In this document: positions 21,926 to 63,939 of the stretch, piece after piece | Position numbering within the stretch: the stretch's first letter is position 1 | Layout: each line of letters opens with the position of its first letter | From: Antedon mediterranea | Taxonomy: Eukaryota > Animalia > Echinodermata | Reading direction: 5' to 3' | NCBI RefSeq assembly: GCF_964355755.1 | Contig: NC_092673.1 | Location: 17,605,648 to 17,669,647, forward strand | Length of the DNA: 64,000 nt | The notes under the pieces: model-generated | What the model was told of the DNA's origin: nothing | Database searches by the model: none | The model's input: only the letters and a program-made list of their open reading frames with translations | Made by a program: the position numbers and the translations under genes

Positions 21926-24900
21926 ATGGAGAGGTATGGTTTTTCAAATTTATTTAAAATACGAATAAACTAACTTTCAATTATTTGTTGATATTTATTT
22001 TACTTTTTTAAATTTCATTTTTATGGCGCTTTTAACAAAGTGTCAACAAAAAAATATATATCAAAAGACCATAGAGATGTATTGTCCTCAAAAAACATGA
22101 CAAAATGAAGATTAATTAAATCAGACTTTGAATAGGTTATTTTGTAGTTTTAATAAAGTAAATCTCTTCCATAGAAAAGAAAAACAAACAAAAAAATGTT
22201 TTCACTTACAAAATAAATGGTTAAATTTAACTAAAAACCTATTGGCTGGCTGCCAGCCAATTTGACTGTTTTTTGGTTTAAATTACAGTTGTTTCAGGTA
22301 AATAATGTTTTTTTCTATTCAATTGTGGATAACTATTATGTGACAATAAAATGGCGTATTCAACAAAAAAATGTTTAGAATTATTTTTTCAGGGGGACAA
22401 TACATCTTTAAGTATGAAAAAAATTCAAATTTAAACATGCAATCAGGCCTGTCATGAACACTGACATCATCTGGCATTCATTTGGTCATCTCACTTTCTA
22501 GATCTTAAGAGATCTTAAGTTGACTTTTTGAAAGTGTAAAGTTAGGTTGACTTACAGTAAAGGGCAATTTGTATATTATTTCAATATGGAAATAGGTAAT
22601 TCCAAACCTTTTAGGATAATATTGAAGTTTATAACTTTCATTTTGACAGGAACAATTTAGAACAAGCTTTGGTCAGGAATGATTTGGAAACAGTTGAACG
22701 ACTTTGTAGGACGCAACCAGATCTTGTGAAAACTATCGATGAGGTATAACTAAATATAATCAGACTTTAAATAGGCAAATTGGCAGTTTTAATAAGTTAT
22801 TCACTTCCGTAGAAAAAAAAATTATTTCTCTTCACTAAAAACCATTGTCTGATGGACAATTTGACGATTTGTTACTTAATTAAATTACAGTTTTAATTTT
22901 TTTTATGATCCAATTTTGGTCAAAGTGATCTGAACATTCTTTTAAATACAATTTTATGAAATATATATTTTATTGATGTTCAATTCATTTTCCCTCTTTC
23001 CTTTTCTATATTAAAAAAATTGTATTTAAAGATGTATTGTCCCCCTGAAAAAAATTATTATTAAAACTTTTTTGTTGAATATGTCATTTTAATGTCACAT
23101 AATAGTTATCCACTTTGACCAAAAATTAGATTTAAAAAAAATATATTTACCTGAAATAACTGTAATTTAAAGCAAAATATAGTCAAATTGGCGGCCAGCC
23201 AATGGATTTTTGGTTGAATTTAACCATTTATTTTGTCATTTTATTTAATTTTTTTTTTCTACGGAAGTGATTAACTTGATTAAAACTACAAAATAACCTA
23301 TTCAAGTCTGATCTAATTAATCTTCATTTTTCATGTTTTCATGTTTCTAAACTTTACTTAAAATGACCTCAGTGATAATAACTGATAATTTATCAATAAA
23401 GATGACAATTAAGATCATTTACTACAGAGTGCATTATTTAATAATTGTTGTATTTACAGAAATCCAATTTCACACAATGTCTGTTTATGATTATGATTCC
23501 TTTACAGGATGGAAACACTCCACTGTATGTATATTTGTGTGATGACCTAATTAACCCTACTTTAGCAATCGTAAATTGTCTCTTAAATCATGGTGCATCA
23601 ACAACATTGCAAAATAAGGTAATTTACATAGATTTTCGTGAACCATTCTATTTTTTATTTCAATAATGACGATTAGAATTAGAATTGTTTACTAAATTAC
23701 TGTATTTAGCAGTAATTGTTACTATGTTGACAGAATAAACATCATCTCTGTTGTCAGTATTAATTATAAACTTCATGATTATGATTCCTTTACAGGATGG
23801 AAACACTCCACTGCATGTATATCTGAGTGGTGATAGACAAATACAACCTACTTTAGAAATAGTGGCATCCCTTGTTGCATCAGCAACATTACAAAATAAG
23901 GCAATTTATTTTCTTTGAATAATGACAAGATTATTTGTTACATTGTTTAGCTGTAATGGTTGCAATAATTTCCATTGACAGAAAACCAATTACACATTTG
24001 TAATGTAAACTCTAAACTCTTTACTATATTTTATGTTTATTTTTATATACCTCTTTATCAACTCAAACCTATGATACTGTACCTTTAATACAGTACCTAT
24101 ATTACCATGTTGGTAATGATTTTTCTTTTATGTTTTTGCAAATAGTTTAAGAACCTGTATCCGTCATATAATGTATTATTTTGATGTATTATGTTAAATT
24201 GGATGCACCACTTCTGTGTGTGCCACCGATGCAAAGGTGTCATTTCCTAATAAATTATTATTATTTTTTTTCATTTTTTTCATTTATCTTTTTTATTTCG
24301 GAATATCATGGTGACATAATATAAAATCCATAGCAAAAGAGAGAAAAAAAAATCTTAATCTAACAGCTCATAGAACAAAAACAAAGATATGTAAATAAAT
24401 AAAGTCAATGCAACAAAGCATTCCATTGTATGTGCATTCTTGACACATTAAGAACGTGGCGATTAATGGCCATGATCAACGAATTACTACTTGCGTTCAC
24501 ACGATTTTTAAAACTAAAAACAGATTTTCTAATGAACTCATCAAAGGATGGGACGTCATTTAAGACAAACATCATGCTTGCACTACAATGTCTAGGCTGC
24601 TTCAGCAGCAGACGTAAGGCATTGTTATAACATACTTTCAGTGATCTCAGAGTGCTCTTATTATATCTACACCATAAGGTTGAACAGTACATGCTGACAC
24701 AGTAACTCTTAAATAGATAACATTTAGTCTTAGTAGAACATTTTCCAAACTTTCTATTTAGATAGTTGGCCCTAATGCAAATAGATCGATATTGACGTTT
24801 GATGTCACCTTCATCACTCAGGTTATTACTGATCACATGACCAAGATAGGTTATTGAATTATCAACGATTAGAGGTGCCCCATTTAAGGTAATATGTGGA

Positions 24901-27900
24901 ACACCTTTGAGGTTGCGGACTTTCGGGCAAAATAGCAAGCATTTGGATTTGGTTTCATTAAAAGTAATATCTTGGTCACTAGCAAAACCTTTACAGAGTC
25001 CAATTAGGCTTTGTAAGCCAGTCACTAACGGAGCCAAAAGGACCAAGTCATCAGCAAAGCTTAGGCAATTCAGTTTAAGACTGTTAATTTCACAACCTTC
25101 TTTTGACTTAGTCAGTTCAACAGTTAACGGATCAGTGTACACATTGTAAAGTAGAGGGGACATAACGCCTCCCTGGCGAACCCCATTACGAACAGTGAAA
25201 GAATCGGAAACGGAACTTCCCCACCTGACAACAAATTCCTGGTTCCTATACCATGACCTCAGTATCTTAACTACAGGTGAAGGGGTACCCCTGTCAATTA
25301 GGGTCTTGAAAAGTGTCCAGTGGTTCACTTTATCAAAGGCTTTGCTAGCGTCCAAGAAACAGCAATAAACTGGGCTACCATGATTGTTGTAATGCTCGAT
25401 AATCTGTTTAAGAGCAAATATACACAATTCGGTTGAGTGACCAGATTTGAAGGCAAACTGGTTGTCATGGGAGTCCAGTGAATTACCACAATGTTGTATC
25501 ATTACAGACTCTAGAAGTTTAGAAGCTACACATGCCAAAGCTATTGCTATTATTATTATTATTATTACATAAAAGCTATTATTAGTATTTATAAACCTCA
25601 TATATTATGATTCTTTTACAGGATGGGAACACTCCATTACATGTATATCTGAGTGATGGATTCAATCATACCTTAGAAATAGTGACTTGTCTTGTACAGC
25701 ACAGTACATCAACCACATTGCAAAATAAGGTACTTTAAAATTGCTAATGTAGGCTAACATTCTTTATCTACTGCAGTAAACCCTTATATTTTTCTTTTAT
25801 ATCAACAATGACAATTTACGATTACTACATAATTTAGCAGTAATTGTTGCTATAGTTTGTATTGATTTTTGATTTTTTGATTTTTTGTCTGTTTTCAGTA
25901 TTTATAAACTTTATAATTATGATTTCTTTACAGGATGGGGACACTCCATTACATGTATATCTGAGTGATGGATTTAATCATACCTTAGGAATAGTGACTT
26001 GTCTTGTACAGCAATGTACATCAGCAACCATGCAAAATAAGGTAATGTACAGAGATTTAGATCTGTTGTGGTAAACCAGTCTATTGTTTAAAAAATGACA
26101 ATATTATTTACTAAATTACTTATCCAATAATTGTTGTATTTAAAGAGAAACAATTTCGTTCGCTTACCCTCTAGGAGTTCACAAAAACATGACCACGACC
26201 CAGGAAATCAGAAACCCGGGTCAGACCTATGCATATTACATATGATTACTGAATTAGACATTTCATGAGGGGTACCCAACTTATGTACAAAAACCAAAAT
26301 ATAGCGACCTGGGTAGTAAAGCTAGTTTTATTTTTTGGAAGTAACAGAGTTGAGATGGGTTACAGAAATGCTGTTTAGGACTGTTGTTATGACATCTTGA
26401 TGACGTCGTAAGAATGTTAAAATGCAGGTTTTTCTTGAGCATAGTAAAATTAGCGATATTACAGAAAGTATGATTAGGGAAACAGAAACTATAATATTTG
26501 GCAGTGTATGAAATTTGAGCCTGCTACTGAGAATAAGTACGATGAGACGCGAAATATCATTTATTAATAATTATATCTACTGACCACACACATCATAAGA
26601 ATATAATTTTAGAAGTTTTGCAAATTGATAATGTGTTACCTAAAACATAAAATAATAGACTTTATGGTACACAGGAGGGAAAGTCAATGCATCAATCACT
26701 GAGTGGTTATGTTATGTGCAATTTGAATGACTTGCACAATTTGAAATTGCTTATTTTCTTAAGTATTTGATTATCAAAACACATCTTACATATTACAGAT
26801 GTCTGTTATCAATATTTTAAAAGTCATGACTATGATTCTTTTACAGGATGGAAACACTCCATTACATGTATATCTGAGTGGTAATTATGACCCTACCTTA
26901 GAAATGGTGACATGTCTCCTAAATCAGGATGCATCAACAACATTGCAAAATAAGGTAATTTATAGGAAATTGTCAGTGTAATAGGCTAACAATCTATATC
27001 TTCTACGGTAAACATTCTCTCCCCCCCCCCCACTCATTTTATCATAGGCCACAAGAAATTCTATTGTTTCTGATGTTATTCTATAATTTGTTAATGTTAT
27101 ACAATGTTAATTTTATGGTTCACATCTCATCAAAAGTTCTCTAAAATGTGTGGCAATTTTGATACCTTTTATACCCCCTTTGCTCATAGGGTGTACAATT
27201 TGTATATTTAATTCTCTGACACATATCATTATCTCTATGATTCATTGTACAAAATTAAATAAATTATTGAGGTGCCCATACACCATATTTGTAGTGGGCC
27301 CTTTTAAGCCTCAGTTGAATTACACAATCAAAAATGGCAACTCCTGTGGCAGGCCATTGCTCAAATAAACTGGATATTTTGTGGAGAACATTTGATATAG
27401 TCCACAATATCAACTTTCAAAATGTTTACTGCTATTGCAAACAATTCACATAATGTCTGTTGTCATTATTTATAAACTTTATGATTATAATTCCTTTCCA
27501 GGATGGAAACACTCCATTACATGTATATCTGGGTGATAGATATCACCCTACCTTAGAAATGGTGGCTTATCTGAAACAGCATGGTGCACCAGTAACATTG
27601 CAAAATAAGGTAATGTAAAAAGAATTGTCAGGACAATCAGCTGCGGAAACATTTTTTTTGTTTCGTTGTTTATCAATAATGGCAATTATTATTATATTAT
27701 TTAGATTTACATATGTGAACTTTATTCAATCAATCGTACATTTGTTTAGGTGTCTAGAAAACTCAGATCTCGAATATACCTGAGTTTTCTAGATCTAGAA
27801 AACTCGGATATCTGACTTTTCTAGTTCCAAAATGGAGTTTTCTAGACACCCCATTTTTTTGGTATTATAATGGTAAACATAATAAAGTGTATTTACAGTG

Positions 27901-30872
27901 ATTTTTACAAAAAAAAAATTAATTATAAAATATATATAGTGATTATTTACAGTAATGATAATAATAAGAATGAATTTAATTATATTGACTATTATTTTTT
28001 TCGGTATTTATTTATAATGGTAACCATAATAACGTGTATTTACAGTGATTTTTACTTTTAATAGAAATAGTAAATACTATTCTCGTCTAAATTTAATATT
28101 TTGTCCAACGCAGCCAATGATGCTCTATCAACCAATCACTAGACAGTAAATGTTTGAGCCATGATATGATACTGTATCAATTAAAAAATATTCTGATACT
28201 CATTTTTATAGGAAGGAAATACACCCATCTCTGTTTTGAAAAATAACAAGCAGATACAGGACCCAGAAAAAAATGAAATTTTAAATTTTTTTGAAAGTAA
28301 GTGAAGTTTTAATTATCAAGATTTTGGGGTAAACCAATTTTCATTGCAAAGGACAGATGTTCAATTTCTTTTTCCAATGCTTTGATAAACTGATTTTGAA
28401 AATGTTCTCATACTGATCATATGATGAGCTCTGTAAAGGTTGTGCATGTGTAAGGTATCCATGCATTGTGCTATTGAAAAACTCTTTAAACTTATAGAGA
28501 ATCATTGTGAGGATGTATGTAATTTAATTATAATTTCTGAACCATGCCTTATGTAGATGTGAATGAATTATGCACATTTACAGGTTTGATAGTTTTCTTC
28601 TTTCATTAGCATTGACTATAATCACAAATGATACAGTCATTAAAAATACAATTCACGGGGTAGGGGTACAAAAACGGTTTTTAGAGTCAAAGTAATATTG
28701 ATGGATAATATGGTGCATAATTAGCAAGCAAGGTGATTGTTTACAACTGGAAATGTTTTGTGATCGATTAGGAGCTACCTGTTTCAGAGCATAGATTTCA
28801 TTTTTATGAGTTATTATAGGGGTCAAAAGGCTAATGATGACCTCTCAATAATTTATTTTGGGATCAATTGCTTACCCTGACCAACCTGTTTCTGTGTATA
28901 ATCATCAATGCACTATGACGAAGAAGAATGTCCAGAATCCAACTACAAAACCAACATAAGGTATATTAGGGACTTTTAGATTTGAGTGAACGTGAACTAA
29001 ATCCACGTGCGTCCACATGGGTCGTAGTCGACTGTTACTCGTCGACAGATATATGAACGCAACCTTTTTTGACTCCGACCCCATGATCCTATTTTGGTAA
29101 TTCTCGCGACCCAACATTGCGTATTTGAGCCACAGACCCCCCCCCCCCCCATGTTAAGTGACACCTACTGTATAGATGGCCGCAAATGGTACTCTTGCAC
29201 GTAAAAATCCATATAAATGGCACCTCTAGTCCACTATAATAATAGTTGCTCGCAATTGGAAAAAGGATCGTATCCTACTTTTTCCGCCGGTAAAGACATT
29301 TGTGTTCAATGCTAACATCCCGAACCATAAAAAGTCCCCCTCCCCTGGCTAGGAACAACATCGCTATGAGTGTAATTTGAGAGGGACCTGTTTCTATTGA
29401 ATGTTAATTGTAAATGTTCCCACCGCCGGTACATCAAAGGATGCACTTCAGTCAAGTTACACACTCATTGCAAACTACAGAACATAGTGTCATAGAACCA
29501 GTTGGTAGATTATTAAATCCACATCCTAATGGGGATTCCCCACTTGTATATTAGCAACAAACTATGCGTCAAAAGCGTCCATTGGCCCGTTGTCGATTCC
29601 CAATTGTGTGTACGCTACTCGCCTCAACATAGGGAAAAACTGTAGATATGTAAAATATAATTAGCCTTTGTAGATTCTACAAAACTGAGAACATTTCACA
29701 TCTAGATCAGTTTATACTTGCTAAAAAGTTTCAGTATCTGAAACATTCACGATCCATCAATTTGTTTTCGCGACTGAAACATTGGGTCTTGACCCATACT
29801 GTAGGTTGCGGAACGGCGGTTTAGATTAAGTGGACATTTATGTTGATTACATTAGCTGGCGATAATAACTACATAAGCTGAAAGGCAATTTTTGTTAATA
29901 CATTAGCTGTTAACCATTTGCTGGTAGCTGGTGTTGATTTTGTATTCAAATAATTATTATGATTATTGAGCTGTCGAAAAAAAATTAATAAATCCAATGT
30001 GCTTTATAAAAAATAATACTATAGAGTTCTTGCACTCGGGTATTAATAGAATATTTCAAAAGTTGTAACTTGAAAGTTTTATACATTACTGTATGTGAAT
30101 TGAATTGATATTCTACAGTGAGTGTACTGTATGTAAATGAGATTTCTAGCATACTGTAAAACATGGAAAAGAAGCCCATAGGCTTTTTTAGGACTCCTGG
30201 ATGGGCGTCTTTTTAAGATATATGATAATATGATCAGGATGATAATGACATAGAAGTTGGTGATATTGAGGATATTACTCAAAAATTTAGGATTTATAAA
30301 ACAAAGAATATAATAACGTACCTTATTATTATAGGAATAAAATAATTAGAGTGAGTAGGTTTTTGTTGTTGTTGTTTCTAAAAGCTGATAATAGATATAG
30401 AAAATATTATTATATTATAATCATATTCAAATAATGATGATTATTAAACAATACTTATAACAATGCTGAATTTATTACTTGAAATTTGAAAATGATTTTG
30501 TGGTTTTTCATGAATTTTTATTCATAAATCTTAAAACAGTAATTATGATAAGAATGCTATCTACTGAATTTATTACAAGAAATTGGAAATGATTTTGTGG
30601 CGTTCCAGGAATTATACTGCAAACTTATTCAAATAATGATTATGATTTCAACAATATTTATGATGCTATCTACTGAATTTATTACATTGGAAAATATTGT
30701 GGTGTTTTATGAATTTATATTCATTATTCATAATCTTAAAAAAACAATTACAATTTCCACAATAATCATGATAACTGTTATACTAAATTGATTGATACTG
30801 TTTTTCATTCGTATAGATCTCTCAGAGGATGTTGAAGACTTAAGTCACAGACTTAGCCCAATGATGCAATAA
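21926..30872 (+). CDS. Ankyrin-repeat gene 1 (10 coding exons, ~296 aa): N-cap, 6 single-repeat exons, C-cap, acidic tail
   Basis: join(21926-21933, 22650-22743, 23508-23618, 23796-23900, 25622-25729, 25934-26041, 26847-26954, 27502-27609, 28212-28296, 30817-30872). All acceptors are AG and all donors GT except one GC. The frame is continuous from MERNNLEQALV to LSHRLSPMMQ*. Confidence 0.8.
22076..22410. mobile_element. Kolobok-like MITE, copy A
   Basis: AGATGTATTGTCC...GGACAATACATCT followed by TTAA. Confidence 0.65.
22650..22743 (+). CDS. Gene 1 N-cap exon
   Basis: ttttgacag|G..GAG|gtataa. (R)NNLEQALVRNDLETVERLCRTQPDLVKTIDE. Paralog at 52551-52647. Confidence 0.85.
23027..23340. mobile_element. 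Kolobok-like MITE, copy B (inverted relative to A)
   Basis: TTAA-AGATGTATTGTCCCCCTG.. Reverse complement of ~22095-22410. Confidence 0.65.
23508..23618 (+). CDS. Gene 1 ankyrin exon R1
   Basis: DGNTPLYVYLCDDLINPTLAIVNCLLNHGASTTLQNK, 111 bp, phase 0/0. Confidence 0.9.
23796..23900 (+). CDS. Gene 1 ankyrin exon R2 (GC donor, possibly degenerate)
   Basis: DGNTPLHVYLSGDRQIQPTLEIVASLVASATLQNK, 105 bp. Donor AAG|gcaatt. Lacks the xHG turn. Confidence 0.65.
24267..25545 (-). mobile_element. 5'-truncated LINE RT fragment (RTEX-like) in a gene 1 intron
   Basis: Open RT frame: QFAFKSGHST, FLDASKAFDKVNH, GVRQGGVMSP, FADD, stop at 24405. A-rich tail on the minus strand. Flanked on both sides by (ATT)n. 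Confidence 0.88.
25622..25729 (+). CDS. Gene 1 ankyrin exon R3
   Basis: DGNTPLHVYLSDGFNHTLEIVTCLVQHSTSTTLQNK, 108 bp, phase 0/0. Confidence 0.9.
25934..26041 (+). CDS. Gene 1 ankyrin exon R4
   Basis: DGDTPLHVYLSDGFNHTLGIVTCLVQQCTSATMQNK, 108 bp. Close duplicate of R3. Confidence 0.9.
26847..26954 (+). CDS. Gene 1 ankyrin exon R5
   Basis: DGNTPLHVYLSGNYDPTLEMVTCLLNQDASTTLQNK, 108 bp. Confidence 0.9.
27502..27609 (+). CDS. Gene 1 ankyrin exon R6
   Basis: DGNTPLHVYLGDRYHPTLEMVAYLKQHGAPVTLQNK, 108 bp. Confidence 0.9.
27748..27851. mobile_element. 104-bp Mutator-like MITE
   Basis: GGTGTCTAGAAAACTC..GAGTTTTCTAGACACC. 9-bp TSD CATTTGTTT/CATTTTTTT (1 mismatch). Termini resemble 8545-12831. Confidence 0.65.
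28212..28296 (+). CDS. Gene 1 C-cap exon
   Basis: tttttatag|GAA..GAAA|gtaagt. EGNTPISVLKNNKQIQDPEKNEILNFFE, phase 0/1. Confidence 0.8.
30817..30872 (+). CDS. Gene 1 probable terminal coding exon
   Basis: tttttcattcgtatag|AT.. continues phase 1 as (N)LSEDVEDLSHRLSPMMQ*. No paralog in the window to confirm it. Confidence 0.55.
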
Positions 30873-31039
30873 ACATGGACGTTCTATTCATACAAGAATT
30901 AGACAAAGTGTTAAAGTGTTGAAAACTGGTACCAGTACAATCTACCTGTTAACTCTTTTATCTGTGAATTGAGTAGCGATTTGGTTGCGATGTAATGTTA
31001 GCGTGTCATACTAAATTTCCCCTTGTTTTATGAGAAAGT

Positions 31040-31420
31040 ATCCCCTGAATAGGGGTGTCCTAAAGAAGGGATTTACTCCAGTAGTAAAGAGGAGGGATGT
31101 GTCCCCTGAATAGGGTTGTCCTAAAGAAGGGGTTTGCTCCAGTAGTAAAGAGGAGGGGTGTGTCCCCTGAATAAGGGTGTCTTAAAAAAAGTGATTTACT
31201 CCAGTAGTAAAGAGGAGGGGTGTGTCCCCTGAATCTGGATGTGTCCCCTGAATAGGGGTGTCCTAAAGAAGGGGTTTACTCCAGTAGTAAAGAGGAGGGG
31301 TGTGTCTCTTGAATAGGGATGTGTCCCCTGAATAGGGGTGTCCTAAAGAAGGGGTTTACTACAGTAGTAAAGAGGAGGGGTGTGTTCCCTGAATAGGGGT
31401 GTGTCCCCTGAATAGGATTT
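31040..31420. repeat. Tandem array of ~60-78-bp units downstream of the gene 1 stop
   Basis: GTGTCCCCTGAATAGGGGTGTCCTAAAGAAGGGGTTTACTCCAGTAGTAAAGAGGAGGGG x ~5. Confidence 0.85.
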
Positions 31421-32227: not shown

Positions 32228-32271
32228 CAGAGCCATATATATAAAGTCGTAACTATATATATATGGCTCTG
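32228..32271. mobile_element. 44-bp palindromic CA..TG mini-element
   Basis: CAGAGCCATATATATA..TATATATATGGCTCTG with perfect 8-bp TSD AACAGAAT (32220-32227, 32272-32279). Confidence 0.7.
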
Positions 32272-34856: not shown

Positions 34857-35066
34857 TATATTTAAATTTGATTTCTTTTAATTTAATTTATATTGTTACA
34901 TGTTTATGTCTCGTCATATTTTTGTGAGGGTCCCTAATGGTCAGCTTCGGCTGGATGGACCACCCTCATAAAATATTGTTGAAATAAAAATAAATAAATA
35001 ATGCATTTTATAAAACATATTTAATAGCAAACTATGGGTACATTCACTTCTACAAAAAATTATTAA

Positions 35067-52165: not shown

Positions 52166-52318
52166 GCAATTTAATTGTCGTAGCCTTTAATGCAAAGGTT
52201 TCTGTCTGATTAATTATGTTTTACCTTTCATATTTTCAGAACAGAATGTGTAGGCTTACTTTTACACTAGAAGCTATCAGTATTAATAATTGTTAAATGA
52301 ACACACTTTATTTTTGAA

Positions 52319-55300
52319 ATGGAAAGGTACGTTTGTTTTTTATTTCAAATCCAACAAAAATAACTGTAACGGTTAAAAACAAATTAAAATGTTTGAATAG
52401 TTAGCAATACTTTAAAACTTTCTTAAAAGATTATGAAATCATAAATATTACAATTAAAGGGCTCATTCTCATCAAATATAATGATTATTTCCATCAATCA
52501 TCATTTTCATAATATAATGTAATAATTCATTATTTCTTACATTTTAACAGGAACAAATTAGAAGAAGCTTTGTTGTACACGTGTGATTTGCAAACAATTA
52601 AACACATTTGTAAGACGCAACCAGATCTTGTGAAATCTATCAATGAGGTATTTAAAACAAGATGTACATTATTTTTATAATATTATCAAATAAGAAATTT
52701 AATTAAAGTTTAAAATTATAGAGATTGTAATTTTCTTTATTATTTATTATAACATTTTTTTATATAATGAATTACAATTATTTTGCAATATCACACTAAT
52801 GATGTTGGTAAGACCTGCATGCACTGATTAACCACATTAGGCTAAAAATAATAATATAAATACACACTGATGATGGGGATAACCTGCATGTACTGATTAA
52901 CCACATTAGGCTAAAAATAATAATATAAATACACACTGATGATGGAGGTATAACCTGCATGTACTGATTAACAACATTATGCTAAAAATAATAATATAAA
53001 TACACACTGATGATAGGGGTATAACCTGCATGCACTGATTAACCACATTAGGCTAAAAATAATAATATAAATACACACTGATGATGGAGGTATAACCTGC
53101 ATGTACTGATTAACCACTTTAGGCTAAAAATAATAATATAAATACACACTGATGATGGGGGTATAACATGCATGTACTGATTAACAACATTAGGCTAAAA
53201 ATAATAATATAAATACACACTGATGATGGGGGTATAACCTGCATGCACTGATTAACAACATTAGGCTAAAAATAATAATATAAATACACACTGATGATGG
53301 GGGTATAACCTGCATGTACTGATTAACCACATTAGGCTAAAAATAATAATATAAATACACACTGATGATGGGGGTATAACCTGCATGCACTGATTAACCA
53401 CATTAGGCTAAAAATAATAATATAAATACACACTGATAATGGGGGTATAACCTGCATGTACTGATTAACCACATTAGGCTAAAAATTATAATATAAATAC
53501 ACACTGATGGGTATGGCAAGCCTCAGCTGTCTGCAGTATTCGAAATATTATATTATTATATCATTTTCACGCTACATCACAAGAGAGGACTCAATCAGAT
53601 ATAAAGCAAGCAGCAATTTTAGGACTGAGAGACTGACGTTTTGCTAAAATGCATACTCGACTATAGTTTATAGGTCCCAGCTGCTGGACCCAAAAAACGT
53701 CTGGGAAAAGTGTCTATGAGGGCTCACGGTTGAACGATTTTGGATTCTTGCCCTTTGATTGGTTGACTTCAAGGCAAATGGTTTAACCTAAATTTGTTAT
53801 CGTATCTAGCTTAACTTAATTATGATATTAATTTCATTGGGTGTTAAAAATCAGTACCAAAAGTATGTACCAACTTTCTCTTCCATTGAGTATAAATTCT
53901 AGAAGTTGCACTTAATTTACTGAAATTTCTCATTACTTATATGTAAATTCATTAAACTGCTTATTGGCCTCATATTGTTAACATCTAAACATTTGTTTGT
54001 ACAATTTTATGAAATATGTATTTTATTAATGTTCAAATTTTGTGATTGATATTGTACAGTAAGTAGATTTTAATGATTACTTACATTAAGTAATAGGCTA
54101 ACAATCACTAGATCTGATCCATGGTAATATATTATATTTTGTTTTCATTTTATCAATAATGATAATTAGGATTTTATCACATTATTTAGCAGTAATTGTT
54201 GTTGTTTGTATTTACAAAAAAAACCAATTTTACATAATGTCTGTTGTCAGTATTTATAAACTTCATTATGATTCCTTTCCAGAATGGGAACACGCCATTA
54301 CATTCATATCTGGGGAGTGTATATACACCTACCTTAGAAATAGTGACATGTCTCATTCAGCATGGGACACCAGTAGCATTGCAAAATAAGGTAATGTACA
54401 GGGATTTGCTAGTGTAATAGGCTAATATTCTAAAGATATGCTGTGGTAGACCATTCTATTTTGTTATACTCATTTATCAATAATGATAATTAGGATTTTA
54501 TCACATTATTTAGCAGTAATTGTTGTTGTTTGTATTAACAAAAAAACCCAATTTCACATAATGTCTGTTGTCAGTATTTATAAAACTTCATTATGATTCC
54601 TTTCCAGGATGGTGAGACTCCATTACATTCATATCTGGGGAGTCTAAGCCTATATCCACTTCCCTTAGAAATAGTGACGTGTCTCATTCAGCATGGGGCA
54701 CCATTAGCATTGCAAAATAAGGTAATGTACAGGGATTTGCTAGTGTAATAGGCTAACATTCTATAGATCTACTGAAGTAAACCATTCAATGAGAGAAAAA
54801 AGTAAGCACATTAACAAAAATCAAATTTGATTAAAACAAACCAAATAAAAAAATAACTAAATAGTTATATATGATTTATGATAACTGATTTAAAGTGTAC
54901 AGCTACCTATCATATAACATAAATCTTTAATTTTCTTAATGAACAATTTTTTTTATATATTCAGTTATTAATAAACAATTATTGACAATGGTCTAATTAA
55001 TTGTAAATATGAAATAAAATGCGACAACTACTAAACAACTAAAAATGTTTATGTTAAAAAAATTAATAGAATCTGATTTTAATAAAAAATAATTATTAAT
55101 TAATAACCTACTCCCTCCCTTACCTTACAAAAAATGCTTCTGTCAGTCTATCCAGCTAATTATAAACATGGCCTTAAACTGCATCTGGAGATCTTTTTCC
55201 AACCTAGGATATTTTTGTGCAAACATTTTGCCACAAAAGGAAGAGAAATGTAAATAATATTTAGCCTTTAGTTAGTGGTTTCCAAAATTTAAAATGTTTG

Positions 55301-58300
55301 AGCAATGCAATTTAAAAAAGAAAGCTAATATGAAATTATTCTGTTCAAACTGAATGCTTTAAGAACAGTTCCGTCTCTTATCTTATGACTTTTCGGGGAA
55401 AAATGACATTATTAAAGTTGCTATATAAAATTTGATACTAGTAAGTGTCAATAGATGGTTCTTAAATACATGACCTTTGATAAATAACTGAAAATTGCAC
55501 TGTACACAAGGCAAATAAATACAGATATGATGGAATTTATGTAGTCAAATATAATTTTCATCCTGAGAATTACCTTAATTTTGTTTATTGCATGGCATTG
55601 TTCACCAAATTCCTGTCTTGGTACAATTGATGATGGGATGGTATAAGGCTTCATGATATGATATGATCTTCATCGAGGCAAATGATAAATTTGTTTTGAT
55701 CGTCAATATAGTACACTGGTTTTCATTAGGTGTTAAAAATTAGTACCGAAAGTATGTACCAACTTTCTCTACCATTGGGTTAAAATTCTAGAAGTTGAAC
55801 TTAATTTACAGAAATTTCCCATTACGTAAATTTATATATAAATTCATTAAACTGCTTTGTGGCCTCATATTTTTAATATCTAAACATTTGTTTGTACAAT
55901 TTTATGAAATATTTATTTTATAACGTTCAAATTTTGTGATTGATATTGTACAGTAAGTAGATTTTAATGATTACTTACATTAAGTAATAGGCTAACAATC
56001 ACTAGATCTGATCCATGGTAATATATTATATTTTGTTTTCATTTATCAATAATGATAATTAGGATTTTATCACATTATTTAGCAGTAATTGTTGTTGTTT
56101 ATATTAACAAAAAACCCAATTTTACATAATGTCTGTTGTCAGTATTTATAAACTTCATTATGATTCCTTTCCAGGATGGTGAGACTCCATTACATTCATA
56201 TCTGAGGAATGTATATAGAATACATAGCTTAGAAATAGTGACTTGTCTCATTCAGCATGGGACACCAGTAGCATTGCAAAATAAGGTAATGTACAGGAAT
56301 TTGCTAGTGTAATAATAAGCTAACATTATATAGATATGCTGAAGTAAACCATTCTATGAGAGAAAAAAGTAAGCACATTAACAAAAATCAAATTTGATTA
56401 AAACAAACCAAATAAAAAAATAACTAAATAGTTATATATGATTTATGATAACTGATTTAAAGTGTACAGTTACCTATCATATAACATAAATCTTTAATTT
56501 TCTTAATGAACAAAAAAATCTATTTTTTTTTATATATTCAGTTATTAAATAACAATTATTGTCAACGGTCTAATTAATTGTAAATATGACGTAAATACTA
56601 AACAAATAAAAATATTTATGTTAAAAAAATTAATAGAATCTGATTTTAATAAAAAATAATTATTAATTAATAACCTACTCCCTCCCTTACCTTACAAAAA
56701 ATGCTTCAGTCAGTGTATCCAGCTAATTATAAACATGGCCTTAAACTACATCTGGAGATCTTTTTCCAACCTAGGATCTTTTTATGCAAATATTTTGCCA
56801 CAAAAGGAAGAGAAATGTAAATAATGTTTAGCCTTTTAGTTAGTGGTTTCCAAAATTTAAAATGTTTGAGCAATGCAATTTAAAAAAGAAAGCTAATATG
56901 AAATTATTCTTTTCAAACTGAATGCTTTAAGAACAGTTCCGTCTCTTATCTTGTGACTTGTTGGGGAAAAATGACATTATTAAAGTTGCTATATAAAATG
57001 TGATACTAGTAGTGCCAATAGATGCTCCTTAAATACATGACCTTTGGTAAATAACTGAAAATTGTTTAAGTACAAAGCAAATAAATACATATATGTTGGA
57101 ATTTATGTTGTCAAATATAATTGTCATCCTGAGAATTAACTTAATTTTGTTCATTACATGTTATTGTTCACCAAATTCCTGTCTTGGTACATTTTATTAT
57201 GAGATGGTATCAGACTTCATGATATGATTTTCATTAAGGCAAATGGTTTAAACTAAACTTGTTATCGTTAATATCGAACTTAGCCTAATTATGATATTGA
57301 TTTCATTAGGTGTTAAAAATCAGTACCGAAAGTATTTACCAACTTTCTCTACCATTGAGTATAAATTCTAGAAGTTGCACTTAATTTACTGAAATTTCCC
57401 ATTACCTAAATTTATATGTAAATTCATTAAACTGCTTATTGGTCTCATATTGTTAACATCTAAACATGTATTTGTACAATTTTATGAAATATGTATTTTA
57501 TTAATGTTCAAATTTTGTGATTGATATTGTACAGTAAGTCGATTTTAATGATTACTTACATTAAGTAATAGGCTAACAATCACTAGATCTGATCCATGGT
57601 AATATATTATATTTTGTTTTCATTTTATCAATAATGATAATTAGGATTTTATCACATTATTTTGCAGTAATTGTTGTTGTTTGTATTTACAAAAAAAAAA
57701 CAATTTCACATAATGTCTGTTGTCAGTATTTATAAACTTCATTATGATTCCTTTCCAGTCTGGTGACACTCTATTACATTCATATCTGGGGAGTGGATAT
57801 AAACCTACCTTAGAAATAGTGACGTGTCTCATTCAGCATGGGGTACCATTAGCATTGGAAAATAAGGTAAATGTACAGGAATTTGCTAGTGTAATAGGCT
57901 AACATTATATAGATATGCTGAAGTAAACCATTCAATGAGAGAAAAAAGTAAGCACATTAACAAAAATCAAATTTGATTAAAACAAACCAAATAAAAATAG
58001 TTATATATGATTTATGATAACTGATTTAAAGTGTACAGTTACCTATCATATAACATAAATCTTTAATAATAATAAATGAAAACTTATATAGCGCCGGTAT
58101 CCTCCACCCATGTGGCGCTCATGGCGCTTTGTGCATTAACAACGTGCGAGAACATCAGCGAATAGCGACGTCTTTAGGTTGGTCTTGAAACTGTTTAGAC
58201 TAGTTGAGCATTTAACTGTTGCTGGTAAGCTGTTCCATACACTTGCGGCCGCAACGAAAAAAGATCTCTGACCCCACTGATTTTTCGCTCTACGCTCTTG

Positions 58301-61300
58301 AAGAAGGTTTTGTGACAATGATCGTAGGCCTCTGCGGGATGATTCGTAACGATCCACAAGGTCAGATAAATAAGCAGGAGCACTGTCATTTAGGATCTTG
58401 AATACAAACAACGCAAGTTTGTACTTAATACGTTGTTGAACAGGCAACCAATGCAAATCCATCAGGACAGGAGTTATGTGAGCGTTTGATTTTGTATAAG
58501 TTACAATTCTAGCTGCCATATTTTGCAAGCGCTGCAAACGTTGTATTTGAGATTTTGGTATGCCAAACAACAAGGCATTACCAATGTCAATTTTAGAAGT
58601 GACAAATGAGTGTACAATCAATTCAGCTGTTTTCTTGTTAAGATTACCGCGAATACGACCAAGGTTCCTAATCGATATGCATGCTGCTTTGGATACAGTT
58701 GTTATTTGTGCTTCCATAGTGAGATTACTATCCAGCATGATTCCCAGATTCCGGACCACCGATGAGGGAGCGATGTTAGAGTTTCCGATTCTGAAATGTG
58801 TGATGTTGATTTTGGAGATGTTACCTTTAGACCCGACGATAATAAACTCTGTCTTTCCATCATTCAACTTTAGGTAATTTGTTGTCATCCAATTGCGAAC
58901 ATCTTCTATACAGGCTTCCATCTTACTGATTGCTGCAGCAACATCCCTTTCCACTGGATTTACTGACACATAAATCTGTGTATCATCTGCATAGAAATGG
59001 AAATGTAGACTGTGTTTGCGAATAATGTCACCAAGGGGAAGCGTATAAATGGAAAACTGGCCAGGACCAATTACTGACCCCTGTGGTACACCATATTCCA
59101 GGCAAGCTTCATCTGAGAATGCATCATTGATACAGACTAGCTGACGTCTTCCTGTAAGATATGACTGGAACCAGTTAAGAGCAACACCATTTATGCCAAT
59201 GCGATTTCTCAGACGGGTTATCAGTCTTCGGTGATCAACTGTATCAAACGCTGCTGACAAATCCAACAACACCAATAGCGTTATTTTCCCATCATTCATT
59301 CCTTGTAACAAATCATTCTGTACCTTTAAAAGGGAACTCTCCGTGCTATGACATGCACGATATGCCGACTGGTAATTCTCATTTAAATTATGCTTTTGAA
59401 GATATGGAGTAATGCGTGATGTCACTACACGCTCCAGAGTCTTTCCAAGAAAAGAAAGATTCGACACCGGGCGGTAATTTTTCAGCGTGTTATGATCCAA
59501 GTTTTGCTTTTTTATTAAAGGACGAACGTGAGCAATTTTCAGTTCATCTGGCACTATGCCGGTATTAAGAGAATGGTTAATGATTTCCGTTATTATTGGA
59601 ACGACTGCGTCTATACACTTCTTCAGTATAGAAGTAGGAACTGGATCTAACCTGCATGATTTTGTTGGTGATTTCATCAGAATGTTGCGGATCTCATCTT
59701 GAGATGCTGGTGTAAATGTTGTGAGATGCTGATGAACAGCTGTCACAGGCTCATTAAATGACATGTCATCAATCTTGAAGTCGTCTCTGATGAAAAACTG
59801 ACAGAACCTGTTCGCAAGATCTAAGTCAGAAAGACTATCTGAGAGAGGTGATACCTGGCGATGATGAAGGAGTTGGTTAACAATTTTAAAAAGTCCTTTC
59901 TGATCTGCTGCATGTTCTTCACACAAGCCAATGTAGTAGTTGGCCTTTGCCTTTCTTACCATGGAATTTACATTCCTCTTCTGTGCAATGTAAGCTTGAC
60001 GATCTATTTCCAGATGAGAGATTCTCCATTTCTTTTCAAGCTTACGCTTTGTTCTTTTCTCAGCATAGATGTCACTGTTATACCAACTAGTGTTTGGTCG
60101 GACCTTTACTGTTCTCTTTTTCGGTGGTGCGTGTTTGTCAAGAAGTTCACTCAAAGTGGTGACATATAGTCGTACTTTACTTGATAAATCAAGATTTGAG
60201 AGCGAAGTTCCGAGATCAGACTGTGTGATATCTTTACATAATGTCTCAAAATTTATAGCATTCCAATGACGAGTTTCGATGGATTTAGTGATTACGGGTG
60301 GCTTCTTGATAAGGAGATTACATGTGATTGCATAGTGATCTGATATACCATCAATGACATTAAGGTTTGAGAAAACAGGAGGATCAGATGAACGAGTGAT
60401 CAGCAAGTCTAATGTATGACCATGTCGGTGTGTAGGTGTAGACACATGCTGTTGAAGACTGCTTGCTGCAAGTAGATTCCGAAAATGAATTGCATCTGCA
60501 TCATTTGGCATATCCACATGGATGTTAAAGTCTCCAACGAATAGTATGGGAGCCGGCTTCAATACATAGTGATCAACCAAAGTTGAGAATTCTTCAGTGA
60601 AAACATTTAGACTGCAACCCGTTGATTTGCTTTGAGGACGATATACTGCTACGAGGAAAACTGAGGATGCATTGCTGACTATTTCCACATTTAGCAGTTC
60701 AAATGATTTTGGTAATAATCCCGTGTCATAACATTTAACCGCTATGCTTTCCTTGTAAAGAAGTGCAACTCCACCACCTCTTTTAGTACTAGCACGGGGA
60801 GCATGTTTTAGAGAGTATCCGTTGGGTGTAATATTTCCTATAACTGATGTGTCTTCTGGTTTAAGCCACGTTTCCGAAAGGGCAACAACATCCAGATTAT
60901 GTTCGATAACGAAATCCACAAATTCTGTTGTTTTGTTCCGAACGGATCTTGTATTAATACAGCAAAATGTAATATTGTTTTTAGATAAGAGAGAGTTTGA
61001 TGATAAGTCCGGAAATGATAGATTGTTTTTAGTGTGTTTGTTTGTTTGTTTGTCACGCCCAGCTCTTGTACCACGCCTGGTTTTTCTTTTTGGCCTCCTT
61101 GGTAATAGGTGGATACTACAGCTACTGGAGTTCAACTTAAAAGATTGTATAATTAAGCAAGATTCTTCAGGAAGTTCACAACTGTTATTGTTGTTGGTTA
61201 CACAGCCCTGTAAACCATGAAGAAACTCAGAGCTATAGCTAATTAGCATGACAACAGCAGATCTTCAAGCATGAGGTGTACAAGGTCATTTACATAACAA

Positions 61301-62970
61301 TATGCACAGTCAGATTGAAAGTACAGGGCTAGCTTCCCACTGATGCTAGTAGACCATTGTTCTTGGGCAGTGATGAGTTTGAATTAAAACAATAAAGGCA
61401 CAAGCAGGGCCTAGCTGAACTTCAGGAAACAACAAGAAAAACAACTGCGATTTACTCCAAGATACGATTATTTCCACATAAGAAATTTGTGAATATATGG
61501 TGCTCAATTTGCTATTCCAGCATCCAGTAAAACTTATTTGATGAAAAAAACCATCTGCAAACAGATACGAAGTTGTTATGCACAGAGCAATATAGAGCCG
61601 CCACATGGGCGCTGCAACACTCCTCCTCTTATTTAAGTTTCTTAATGAACAAAAAAATCTATATTTTTTTATATATTCAGTTATTAAATAACAATTATTG
61701 ACAATGGTCTAATTAATTGTAAATATGAAATAAAATGCGACAACTACTAAAGAACTAAAAATGTTTATGTTAAAAAATTAATAGAATCTGATTTTAATAA
61801 AAAATGATTATTAATTAATAATGTGCTCCTTCCCTTATCTTACAAAAAAAATGCTTCTGTCAGTCTATCCAGCTAATTATGAACATGGCCTTAAAGAAAT
61901 CCTTTTCCAACCTAGGATCTTTTTGTGCAAACATTTTGCCACAAAATGAAGAGAAATGTAAACAATGGTTTGTTAGTTTTCAAAATCTAAATTGTTTAAG
62001 TAATGCAATTTAAAAAAGAAAGGTAATATGAAATTATTCTTTTCAAACTGAATGCTTTTAAGAAAAGTTCCGTCTCTTATCTTATGACTTTTTTGGAAAA
62101 ATGATTAAAATTAAAATATAATATACTAGTAAGTGCTCACAGATGCTTCTCGAATTCATGAACTTTGGTAAATAACGGAAAATTGCACTGTACACAAAGC
62201 AATACAGATATGATGGAATTTATGTAGTCAAATATAATTGTCATCCTGAGAATTACCTTAATTTTGTTTATTGCATGGTATTGTTCACCAAATTCCTGTC
62301 TTGGTACATTTGATGATGGGATGGTATCAGACTTCATGATATGATATGATCTTCATCGAGGCAAATGATAAATTTGTTTTGATCGTCAATATAGTACACT
62401 GGTTTTCATTTGGTGTTAAAAATTAGTACCGAAAGTATGTACCAACTTTCTCTACCATTGGGTTAAAATTCTAGAAGTTGAACTTAATTTACAGAAATTT
62501 CCCATTACGTAAATTTATATATAAATTCATTAAACTGCTTTGTGGCCTCATATTTTTAATATCTGAACATTTGTTTGTACAATTTTATGAAATATTTATT
62601 TTATAACGTTCAAATTTTGTGATTGATATTGTACAGTAAGTAGATTTTAATGATTATTTACATTAAGTAATAGGCTAACAATCACTACCTGTAGATCTGA
62701 TCCATGGTAATTATATTTCGTTTTCATTTATTAATAATGATAATTAGGATTTTATCACATTATTTAGCAGTAATTGTTGTTGTTTATATTAACAAAAAAC
62801 CCAATTTCACATAATGTCTGTTTTCAGTATTTATAAACATCATGATTATGATTCCTTTCCAGAATGATGACACTCTATTACATTCATATCTGAGTAGTGT
62901 ATATCCACCTACCTTAGAAATAGTGACGTGTCTCATTCAGCATGGGACACAAGTAGCGTTGCAAAATAAG
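52319..62970 (+). CDS. Ankyrin-repeat gene 2, 5' part (3' end outside the window)
   Basis: join(52319-52326, 52551-52647, 54283-54390, 54608-54721, 56175-56285, 57759-57866, 62863-62970). All GT-AG. Begins MERNKLEEALLYTCDLQ.., paralogous to gene 1. Confidence 0.82.
52551..52647 (+). CDS. Gene 2 N-cap exon
   Basis: (R)NKLEEALLYTCDLQTIKHICKTQPDLVKSINE, ttttaacag|..GAG|gtattt. Confidence 0.85.
52793..53510. repeat. Intronic tandem array, 71-bp unit x ~10
   Basis: TACACACTGATGATGGGGGTATAACCTGCATGTACTGATTAACCACATTAGGCTAAAAATAATAATATAAA. Confidence 0.95.
54283..54390 (+). CDS. Gene 2 ankyrin exon R1
   Basis: NGNTPLHSYLGSVYTPTLEIVTCLIQHGTPVALQNK, 108 bp, phase 0/0. Confidence 0.9.
54608..54721 (+). 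CDS. Gene 2 ankyrin exon R2
   Basis: DGETPLHSYLGSLSLYPLPLEIVTCLIQHGAPLALQNK, 114 bp. Confidence 0.9.
56175..56285 (+). CDS. Gene 2 ankyrin exon R3
   Basis: DGETPLHSYLRNVYRIHSLEIVTCLIQHGTPVALQNK, 111 bp. Confidence 0.9.
57759..57866 (+). CDS. Gene 2 ankyrin exon R4
   Basis: SGDTLLHSYLGSGYKPTLEIVTCLIQHGVPLALENK, 108 bp. Confidence 0.9.
58067..61631 (-). mobile_element. L2-type LINE, apparently complete, inserted in a gene 2 intron
   Basis: L2-style 3' end (..GCGCTATATAAG..(TTA)n). TTTAA duplicated at 58062-58066 and 61632-61636. Sister intron units show the empty site AATCTTTAA(T/G)TTTCTTAATG. Confidence 0.9.
58136..61249 (-). CDS. APE endonuclease-reverse transcriptase polyprotein (L2-like)
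   Basis: 1037 aa uninterrupted: INTRSVRNK, SETWL, GDFN, HGHTLDL, SDH, NYRPVSNL, LLDLSAAFD, GVPQGS, YADD, HWLP. Confidence 0.92.
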   Translation of the reverse strand: MLISYSSEFLHGLQGCVTNNNNSCELPEESCLIIQSFKLNSSSCSIHLLPRRPKRKTRRGTRAGRDKQTNKHTKNNLSFPDLSSNSLLSKNNITFCCINTRSVRNKTTEFVDFVIEHNLDVVALSETWLKPEDTSVIGNITPNGYSLKHAPRASTKRGGGVALLYKESIAVKCYDTGLLPKSFELLNVEIVSNASSVFLVAVYRPQSKSTGCSLNVFTEEFSTLVDHYVLKPAPILFVGDFNIHVDMPNDADAIHFRNLLAASSLQQHVSTPTHRHGHTLDLLITRSSDPPVFSNLNVIDGISDHYAITCNLLIKKPPVITKSIETRHWNAINFETLCKDITQSDLGTSLSNLDLSSKVRLYVTTLSELLDKHAPPKKRTVKVRPNTSWYNSDIYAEKRTKRKLEKKWRISHLEIDRQAYIAQKRNVNSMVRKAKANYYIGLCEEHAADQKGLFKIVNQLLHHRQVSPLSDSLSDLDLANRFCQFFIRDDFKIDDMSFNEPVTAVHQHLTTFTPASQDEIRNILMKSPTKSCRLDPVPTSILKKCIDAVVPIITEIINHSLNTGIVPDELKIAHVRPLIKKQNLDHNTLKNYRPVSNLSFLGKTLERVVTSRITPYLQKHNLNENYQSAYRACHSTESSLLKVQNDLLQGMNDGKITLLVLLDLSAAFDTVDHRRLITRLRNRIGINGVALNWFQSYLTGRRQLVCINDAFSDEACLEYGVPQGSVIGPGQFSIYTLPLGDIIRKHSLHFHFYADDTQIYVSVNPVERDVAAAISKMEACIEDVRNWMTTNYLKLNDGKTEFIIVGSKGNISKINITHFRIGNSNIAPSSVVRNLGIMLDSNLTMEAQITTVSKAACISIRNLGRIRGNLNKKTAELIVHSFVTSKIDIGNALLFGIPKSQIQRLQRLQNMAARIVTYTKSNAHITPVLMDLHWLPVQQRIKYKLALFVFKILNDSAPAYLSDLVDRYESSRRGLRSLSQNLLQERRAKNQWGQRSFFVAAASVWNSLPATVKCSTSLNSFKTNLKTSLFADVLARC
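62863..62970 (+). CDS. Gene 2 ankyrin exon R5
   Basis: NDDTLLHSYLSSVYPPTLEIVTCLIQHGTQVALQNK, 108 bp. Confidence 0.9.
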
Positions 62971-63927: not shown

Positions 63928-63939
63928 GATGGTGACACC
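63928..63939 (+). pseudogene. Gene 2 truncated ankyrin exon stub
   Basis: Intact acceptor attccttttcag|GATGGTGACAC, then an abrupt jump to intron-like AGATCTGATC. Confidence 0.7.

What the first reader, a model, noticed from the sequence alone, without database searches (positions are those of the whole stretch)
21926..63939. DARPin-like locus: tandem ankyrin genes built from interchangeable one-repeat exon cassettes
Seen: two paralogous genes with a MER micro-exon, an N-cap exon and arrays of 105-114 bp exons (6 in gene 1; 5 plus a stub in gene 2). Each exon encodes exactly one ankyrin repeat, all are phase 0/0, all end in AAT AAG (NK) and all share a near-identical acceptor. Gene 1 closes with a C-cap exon and has no other recognisable domain, signal peptide or TM segment. 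Any subset of cassettes therefore splices in frame between the caps. Established: cap-repeat-cap is the architecture of designed ankyrin binders, and Dscam and lamprey VLRs diversify receptors from cassettes. Inference: a cytosolic binder family, possibly immune, diversified by exon skipping and/or unequal crossing-over. Symmetric ankyrin exons alone are common in animals; the case rests on their combination with focused hypervariability and active turnover.
Basis: partly seen in the sequence, partly recalled or inferred. Interest (0 to 1): 0.9.

Follow-up and report, generated by a model that had tools for sequence, protein, structure and literature searches.

The report
Feather-star swappable ankyrin sensor exons
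Two neighbouring feather-star genes build an ankyrin binding domain from one small exon per repeat, with one loop changing faster than the introns around it; the same domain heads a large family of GTPase-switch (ROCO) proteins that likely act as immune sensors inside the cell, and mix-and-match splicing is possible but not shown.

Summary
The exon arrays are real: 11 phase-0 exons of 105-114 nt, one ankyrin repeat each, plus a stub. The window is Antedon mediterranea: RefSeq XP_071949162.1 is identical to the 3' part of gene 1. This is not a stand-alone DARPin family. The same N-cap, cassettes and C-cap form the head of Antedon ANK-ROC-COR(-DED) proteins carrying 2-8 cassettes. No ROC-COR lies in the window. 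Gene 1 is a head-only member with one damaged cassette (GC donor, 3-residue deletion) and a probable extra last exon. Gene 2 runs off the window. In gene 2 the helix 1-helix 2 loop shows 12 amino-acid-changing and 0 silent changes, about six times the intron rate. DNA-level turnover is evident; exon skipping is untested, and no Dscam-like pairing signal was found. Closest known: brown-algal LRR-ROCO candidate receptors with one repeat per exon. Ten literature searches found no animal ankyrin version. This scan noted a similar mussel gene before (e1-9532795, unchecked). Verdict: new variant of a known kind.

The parts
21926..21933 (+). Gene 1 start micro-exon (M-E-R, phase 2)
22650..22743 (+). 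Gene 1 N-cap exon; 23 of 34 residues identical to the N-cap of ANK-ROC-COR protein XP_071947615.1 (P0014)
23508..23618 (+). Gene 1 cassette 1 (111 nt)
23796..23900 (+). Gene 1 cassette 2 (105 nt): GC donor and 3-codon deletion; probably weak or dead
25622..25729 (+). Gene 1 cassette 3 (108 nt)
25934..26041 (+). Gene 1 cassette 4 (108 nt), same loop as cassette 3; the RefSeq model starts at its internal Met
26847..26954 (+). Gene 1 cassette 5 (108 nt), in XP_071949162.1
27502..27609 (+). Gene 1 cassette 6 (108 nt), in XP_071949162.1
28212..28296 (+). Gene 1 C-cap exon, ending in a consensus donor (stop at 28302-28304 if unspliced); 12-14 of 28 residues identical to the C-caps that precede ROC in four relatives
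30817..30872 (+). Probable last coding exon of gene 1 (18 codons and stop), as in RefSeq; no ROC follows
52319..52326 (+). Gene 2 start micro-exon
52551..52647 (+). Gene 2 N-cap exon; 29 of 34 residues identical to the N-cap of P0014
54283..54390 (+). Gene 2 cassette 1 (108 nt)
54608..54721 (+). Gene 2 cassette 2 (114 nt)
56175..56285 (+). Gene 2 cassette 3 (111 nt)
57759..57866 (+). Gene 2 cassette 4 (108 nt)
58047..61630 (-). Non-LTR retrotransposon with an open 1042-codon frame, inserted into one duplicated unit of gene 2 (empty site in the sister unit); ends approximate
62863..62970 (+). Gene 2 cassette 5 (108 nt)
63928..63939 (+). Gene 2 stub: acceptor and four codons fused to a copy of the upstream intron flank (deletion product)

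Best explanation
These are ankyrin 'sensor heads' of an expanded feather-star ROCO family, in which an exon-plus-flank unit coding one repeat has been copied and deleted in tandem and one loop has diversified, likely under selection for new binding specificities. Shown: the head (N-cap, n cassettes, C-cap) is the N-terminus of Antedon ANK-ROC-COR(-DED) models with 2-8 cassettes, and in gene 2 the loop changes faster than the neighbouring introns. Inferred: the units are gained and lost by unequal crossing-over and conversion in the germ line, and the phase-0 ends keep every gain or loss in frame. In full-length members, ligand binding to the head would control the ROC-COR GTPase switch and so a death-fold or other tail, much as in NLR-type receptors. 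Gene 1 lacks the ROC-COR part and is likely a head-only offshoot, either a decoy or a decaying copy. Gene 2 is likely the 5' end of a longer member that continues past the window. Exon skipping may add variants but is not needed to explain the data.
For: Family: a cassette profile scores >=25 bits in 8 of 214 proteins held, all Antedon models. 5 of the 8 carry Roc and 4 carry Roc plus COR. The caps match too. GTPase motifs G1-G4 are present in the full-length models. 30 Antedon models with Roc and/or COR lie on four chromosome-scale sequences, 17 of them on the one that holds the gene 1 model; some are fragments or isoforms. Selection (gene 2, five cassettes): loop plus two codons has 12 amino-acid-changing differences on 15.2 sites and 0 silent on 5.8; introns have 22 on 168. 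The whole exon has 24 on 81 against the intron rate (Fisher p=0.003). The scan peak falls on the loop (permutation p=0.010 for 21 nt). The same loop is the most variable part in 19 repeats of six paralog models: within-gene pairs differ at 65-78% of loop positions against 0-11% at the G, T, L, H, Y, L framework positions. All 11 exons keep frame although loop length varies from 5 to 7 codons. Turnover: stub, damaged cassette, duplicated units of 1-2 kb at 86-93% identity, and a DNA contig joint that implies a further in-frame cassette with another six-codon loop. In Anneissia the related ROCOs have short heads of unlike repeats, and only one repeat weakly matches the cassette (best 18 bits, 3 of 16 models), so the amplification looks recent. 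Precedent: PMC3341825, PMC11378527.
Against: No ROC-COR sequence lies in the window, so family membership of these two genes rests on the head alone. The unbiased cassette search found Roc in only 1 of 4 hits; the later searches used Roc-bearing queries and favour such hits. All relatives are automatic RefSeq models, several visibly split or partial, and their exon structure was not seen. In gene 1 the loop does not exceed silent divergence (pN 0.33 against pS 0.46, six equal-length pairs). The scan test is weaker at other widths (p=0.063 and 0.15), and minimum-change counts on five related copies are crude. Site incompatibility (48 of 78 pairs) shows no clustering by distance (p=0.52), so conversion is not proved. 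No ligand, immune expression or signalling evidence exists.
Confidence: 0.62

Rival explanations
1. One reading: stand-alone cytosolic DARPin-like binders whose repertoire is made mainly by skipping cassettes between the caps.
For: All cassettes are phase 0/0, so any subset is in frame. Gene 1 has no ROC-COR and folds as a capped ankyrin domain. 3 of 4 hits of the cassette search are ankyrin-only models. Brown-algal ROCO exons are alternatively spliced (PMC11378527).
Against: Caps and cassettes are those of ROCO heads. Two of the three ankyrin-only models end without a C-cap and look truncated. No docking/selector complementarity above shuffles. Introns between cassettes are 177-4996 nt, so nothing forces mutual exclusion. 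Six cassettes give at most 63 non-empty subsets. No isoform labels on 7 cassette-bearing models listed.
Confidence: 0.13
2. The two loci are decaying by-products of ROCO birth-and-death, duplicated 5' fragments whose variation was fixed earlier or is neutral.
For: Gene 1 lacks ROC-COR, has a cassette with a GC donor and a deletion, and RefSeq models only its 3' part. Gene 2 has a stub, two cassettes with the TPLH proline changed to leucine, and a retrotransposon insertion. Over half of Ectocarpus ROCOs were first called pseudogenes (20 of 37, PMC11378527).
Against: No stop or frameshift in 11 of 11 cassettes or in the caps. Gene 1 has an open 296-codon frame if all exons are joined and framework omega 0.45. 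Amino-acid changes in gene 2 exceed the neutral rate among recently duplicated units. Likely for gene 1, less so for gene 2.
Confidence: 0.17
3. The family is a variable sensor for something other than pathogens, such as self/non-self recognition, symbionts or stress signalling.
For: Fungal NLRs with variable repeat numbers act in allorecognition (PMC13449251 passages). Algal ROCOs respond to abiotic stress (PMC11378527). No ligand is known here.
Against: Lineage-specific expansion, swapped tails (DED, Death, HEPN, ZU5) and loop-focused selection fit a conflict with invaders best (general pattern in PMC8195603 passages).
Confidence: 0.08

Closest known systems
Brown-algal LRR-ROC-COR (ROCO) and NB-ARC-TPR candidate receptors (Zambounis et al., PMC3341825; Teng et al., PMC11378527)
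   Same: One repeat per symmetric exon in the sensor head of an expanded ROCO family; variable repeat number; inactivated exon copies; diversifying selection on the presumed binding residues; immune role proposed but not shown.
   Different: Ankyrin rather than LRR; phase 0 rather than phase 2; an animal; death-fold and other tails behind COR; no inverted cassettes in the introns here; alternative splicing documented there, not here.
ROCO GTPases (LRRK2, DAPK1, MFHAS1/MASL1; Trichoplax ROCO expansion; listed in PMC11378527)
   Same: ROC-COR core with G1-G4 motifs in the full-length Antedon relatives; ankyrin and death-fold domains also occur in DAPK1 and LRRK2 (recalled).
   Different: No kinase in the cassette-bearing members; many copies; homogenised, length-variable ankyrin head. 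The two genes in the window show no ROC-COR.
DARPins (designed ankyrin repeat proteins; PMC8683736, PMC9611651)
   Same: N-cap, self-compatible internal repeats, C-cap; nearly all top structural matches are DARPins (TM about 0.67, rmsd about 2.1). Variable cassette positions 1, 3 and the end of helix 1 match randomised DARPin positions (numbering recalled).
   Different: Natural; repeats of 35-38 residues with extra residues between helix 1 and helix 2, where most variation lies; normally the head of a larger protein.
Fungal NLRs with high-internal-conservation WD40/ANK/TPR repeats (PMC13449251)
   Same: Effector, NTPase switch and homogenised repeat sensor, with repeat number varying by recombination.
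   Different: NACHT or NB-ARC instead of ROC-COR; reversed domain order; allorecognition shown for some.
Arthropod Dscam1 and lamprey VLR (recalled, not read)
   Same: Arrays of interchangeable binding cassettes.
   Different: No docking/selector pairing found; cassettes lie inside the gene between the caps rather than in a flanking donor pool; at most tens of combinations per gene; cytosolic.

Membership tests
ROCO GTPases | ROC followed by COR in the same protein: full-length relatives | tested here: met
   Pfam Roc and COR-A above cut-off in P0014, P0022, P0047, P0191; Roc only in the partial P0004
ROCO GTPases | ROC-COR encoded by the two genes in the window | tested here: not met
   No tblastn hit for 16 ROC-COR queries apart from one weak match inside a retrotransposon frame. 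Gene 1 is therefore not itself a ROCO; gene 2 is cut by the window end and undecided.
ROCO GTPases | Intact GTPase motifs G1-G4 | tested here: met
   All four in 7 of 9 models scanned; the two partial models lack the later motifs
ROCO GTPases | GTP binding, hydrolysis and dimer switching | not testable with these tools
   needs biochemistry
Brown-algal-type exon-shuffled ROCO sensors | One repeat per symmetric exon | tested here: met
   11 of 11 cassettes; exon structure of the paralogs inferred only
Brown-algal-type exon-shuffled ROCO sensors | Repeat is an LRR on a 72-nt phase-2 exon | tested here: not met
   ankyrin, 105-114 nt, phase 0; works alike but is not a member
Brown-algal-type exon-shuffled ROCO sensors | Diversifying selection on presumed binding residues | tested here: met
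   gene 2 and paralogs; not seen in gene 1
Brown-algal-type exon-shuffled ROCO sensors | Inactivated or inverted exon copies inside the array | tested here: inconclusive
   one stub and one damaged cassette; no inverted copy
Brown-algal-type exon-shuffled ROCO sensors | Alternative splicing of repeat exons | tested here: inconclusive
   no confirmed RNA data
DARPin-like capped ankyrin domain | N-cap, stackable repeats and C-cap fold as one domain | tested here: met
   two partial models: P0001 pLDDT 88.5, P0002 pLDDT 92.4; Foldseek on the first
DARPin-like capped ankyrin domain | Stand-alone protein | tested here: inconclusive
   true for gene 1 as far as the window shows; not for the full-length relatives
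Dscam1-type mutually exclusive splicing | Docking site pairing with selector sequences before each exon | tested here: not met
   best duplexes -11 to -15 kcal/mol, within the range of 10 shuffles for 10 of 11 cassettes and 0.1 beyond it for one; only part of the N-cap intron was tested
Lamprey VLR-type somatic assembly | Incomplete germline gene filled from flanking cassettes | tested here: not met
   gene 1 is complete in the germ line, with spliceable cassettes between the caps; somatic change itself not tested

The most novel reading that the evidence does not exclude
Feather stars carry an anticipatory intracellular receptor repertoire: individual cells assemble different natural-DARPin heads by combinatorial splicing or somatic recombination of ankyrin cassettes, wired to a ROC-COR switch and a death-effector tail, with head-only genes such as gene 1 acting as decoys or cassette donors.
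Probability: 0.1. Interest if true: 0.9.

Novelty: new variant of a known kind. Interest (0 to 1): 0.55.

Why it matters
It points to an unannotated, expanded family of candidate intracellular immune sensors in crinoids, a branch of echinoderms for which my searches found little immune genomics. It also extends the one-repeat-per-exon ROCO design, in print for brown algae, to an animal and to ankyrin repeats, apparently by convergence. The locus makes the open question of germ-line shuffling versus splicing versus somatic change testable with one cap-to-cap long-read amplicon. The selected helix 1-helix 2 loop is a natural diversification site that standard DARPin libraries use only in part (recalled). 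Gene models in RefSeq are split or missing here, so such families are probably under-counted.

Tried and rejected
No whole genome was held, so loci could not be counted genome-wide and gene 2 could not be followed. Sequencing-run search: no RNA holder listed; this is no evidence on expression. Contigs of 4 of the 9 runs were laid on gene 1; repeats dominated the tables and no exon-exon joint was among the 15 joints shown (783 not shown). One contig of X8, a run only guessed to be RNA, stops exactly at the N-cap donor (22743) with 124 letters beyond, but it also includes about 100 nt of upstream intron. A second, targeted laying was not obtained, so this stays unresolved and is not used as evidence. 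Homology of gene 1's last exon to the linker before ROC in P0004: not significant (p 0.46-0.70). Docking/selector pairing: none. Spatial test for recombination: not significant. Cassette trees from separate partitions differ but are poorly supported, except for the split between the two genes in the whole-unit tree. Poly(A) signals (none in 28300-29000, four in 30870-32700) are too weak to decide the gene end. Literature searches found no paper on crinoid or other animal ankyrin-cassette ROCO genes; one search was for DARPin background. The library lacks most subscription journals. Supplements were not opened; those of PMC11378527 (domain lists for animal ROCOs) may include ANK-ROC-COR-DED architectures.
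Full report
Observation. A motif scan and tblastn recover 11 cassette exons and a stub at the coordinates listed under parts. A nucleotide HMM built from them finds no further copy on either strand (next hit E 0.36). All 11 are 105-114 nt, in phase 0/0, free of stops and end in N-K; 10 of 11 match Pfam Ank. Each gene starts with an 8-nt coding micro-exon and an N-cap exon. Cassette 2 of gene 1 has a GC donor and lacks three codons, and unspliced read-through stops after five more codons. The C-cap exon ends in a consensus donor. Gene 2 has no C-cap in the window, and its stub joins a copy of the flank that normally lies upstream of a cassette, which suggests a deletion and a further cassette beyond the window (inference). 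The long open frames elsewhere in the window that I inspected are retrotransposon-like.

Identity. A profile search with the cassettes gave 12 hits among 7994 scored candidates; the best four are Antedon mediterranea RefSeq models. P0001 (XP_071949162.1) is identical to the end of cassette 4, cassettes 5 and 6 and the C-cap of gene 1, spliced to an exon at 30817-30872. It omits the N-cap and cassettes 1-3; whether RNA supports it is not visible to me. P0004 continues from two cassettes and a C-cap into a Roc domain.

The family. Searches with P0004 and P0022 returned full-length relatives: P0014 (N-cap, 2 cassettes, C-cap, two ROC-COR units), P0022 (4 cassettes, ROC-COR, DED-like tail), P0047 (8 cassettes, ROC-COR, DED-like tail) and P0191 (3 cassettes, ROC-COR). 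The DED matches in P0022 and P0047 (E 2e-7 and 7e-6) are below Pfam's cut-off. The cassette profile reaches 25 bits in 8 of the 214 proteins held, all Antedon; 5 of the 8 have Roc. This share is biased upward because the later queries contained Roc; the unbiased search gave 1 of 4. The N-cap of gene 2 is 29 of 34 identical to that of P0014, the N-cap of gene 1 23 of 34, and the C-cap of gene 1 12-14 of 28 identical to four C-caps that lead into ROC. P0004's model begins with the translated acceptor motif seen before the window's cassettes, which suggests the same exon layout at that locus (inference). I counted 30 Antedon models with Roc and/or COR on four chromosome-scale sequences, 17 on the 36.2-Mb one that also holds P0001; some are fragments or isoforms. 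A tree of 22 ROC-COR segments gives two well-supported crinoid clades, and cassette heads occur on both (three rows under half filled, outgroup on a long branch). Of the 28 hits, 11 are Antedon, 16 Anneissia japonica and 1 a coral. Anneissia members carry DED, Death or HEPN tails and, where present, short heads of unlike repeats, of which only one weakly resembles the cassette (3 of 16 above 8 bits, best 18). The tandem amplification therefore looks younger than the split of the two genera, or was lost in Anneissia (inference from automatic models). No ROC-COR lies in the window.

Structure. AlphaFold models of P0001 (cassettes and C-cap) and P0002 (N-cap and cassettes) are confident ankyrin stacks (pLDDT 88.5 and 92.4). 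Nearly all top Foldseek matches of the first are DARPins (TM about 0.67). The variable segment starts at the end of helix 1 and runs to helix 2 (helices 9-15 and 22-30), where the cassettes carry about three extra residues relative to 33-residue ankyrins. DARPin papers confirm the cap-repeat-cap design with six randomised surface positions (PMC8683736, PMC9611651, passages seen); my mapping of those positions to cassette positions 1, 3 and the helix 1 end is recalled. That this loop contacts ligand is inferred.

Selection and turnover. In gene 2 the five cassettes sit in units of 1-2 kb that are 86-93% identical. Minimum-change counts are: introns 22 on 168 sites; loop 8 amino-acid-changing on 11.0 sites and 0 silent on 4.0; loop plus two codons 12 on 15.2 and 0 on 5.8; tail 5 on 44.1 and 3 on 12.9; head 7 on 21.9 and 2 on 8.1. 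The whole exon, which needs no chosen window, has 24 on 81 against the intron rate (p=0.003). A sliding scan peaks on the loop at 21 nt (p=0.010) but is not significant at 15 or 30 nt (0.063, 0.15). As an independent check, 19 repeats from six paralog models vary most in the same loop and at positions 1 and 3 (37 within-gene pairs; P0105 left out as a more distant type). Against: in gene 1, whose copies are older, the loop does not exceed silent divergence (0.33 against 0.46), while its framework is conserved (omega 0.45). 48 of 78 pairs of informative sites are incompatible with one tree, without spatial clustering (p=0.52), which fits conversion or recurrent change equally. One contig of run X1 joins a cassette-2-like head through 11 other letters to a cassette-1-like tail, in frame: a cassette not in the window, allelic or paralogous.

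Splicing. Any subset of cassettes is in frame, but nothing points to regulated choice. Introns are 177-4996 nt, no selector-like pairing was found, and none of the 7 cassette-bearing RefSeq models whose clusters I listed has a second member or an isoform label (P0191 not looked up; weak, since RNA cover is unknown). Expression was not established (see Tried and rejected).

Mechanism. Shown: cassette anatomy, homology of the head to ROCO heads, variable cassette number, excess amino-acid change in the loop of gene 2. Inferred: germ-line unequal crossing-over and conversion as the generator; a sensor-switch-effector function (ankyrin head, ROC-COR, death-fold tail); an immune target; a decoy or decaying status for gene 1. 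Confidence 0.62; rivals are decay (0.17), splice-generated stand-alone binders (0.13) and a non-pathogen ligand (0.08).

Comparison and novelty. Brown-algal ROCO genes have one LRR per exon, shuffling, dead exon copies, diversifying selection and alternative splicing (PMC3341825: abstract, section 15, first part of Discussion; PMC11378527: abstract, Results, first part of Discussion). This locus works like them but is not a member: different repeat, phase, kingdom and tails. PMC13449251 (fungal NLR repeat-number polymorphism), PMC8195603 (marine invertebrate expansions of death-fold proteins) and PMC9334734 (Aplysia TIR-ROCO proteins) were seen as passages only. Searches found no description of an animal ankyrin-cassette ROCO family. 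This scan earlier noted a mussel ankyrin-cassette gene read as a ROCO head and similar arrays in microbial eukaryotes (unchecked notes, seen after I had stated the ROCO reading), so the design recurs. Verdict: new variant of a known kind, interest 0.55.

Noticed in passing
window 58047-61630 (-): Non-LTR retrotransposon with an open 1042-codon endonuclease/reverse-transcriptase frame, inserted in a gene 2 intron at a short TTTAA site; the sister unit shows the empty site, so it is younger than that duplication.
   Followed up: partly
window 36843-39782 (-): Second non-LTR element with an open 979-codon frame, next to an AATTC repeat at 36686-36717, between the two genes.
   Followed up: no
window 313-4051 (-) and 24405-25604 (-): Non-LTR element with an ORF1-like frame and an ORF2 broken over three frames; a reverse-transcriptase fragment lies in gene 1 between cassettes 2 and 3.
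   Followed up: no
window 22092-22414 and 23023-23339: Arms of a high-copy inverted repeat (82% alike) flank the N-cap exon of gene 1; in pre-mRNA they could pair across that exon.
   Followed up: no
window 43913-47216, 50794-52163, 52787-53509, 13560-15029: Minisatellite arrays of 89, 31, 71 and 130 nt; three lie upstream of or inside gene 2. Part of the 89-nt unit resembles 21085-21169 upstream of gene 1 (84% over 89 nt).
   Followed up: no
P0014 (XP_071947615.1): Model with two ROC-COR units in tandem, one from each crinoid clade, and a hydrophobic C-terminus; a real double ROCO or a fusion of two genes.
   Followed up: partly
P0018, P0024, P0057, P0072, P0190, P0198, P0202: Crinoid ROC-COR cores carry swapped partners: N-terminal DED, kinase or Death domains, and C-terminal DED, Death, ZU5 or HEPN domains.
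   Followed up: partly
window 18894-20919 and 35882-36189: Repeated AT-rich segments upstream of gene 1 recur near 36000 (74-86% alike); a dispersed repeat or a remnant of another upstream region.
   Followed up: no
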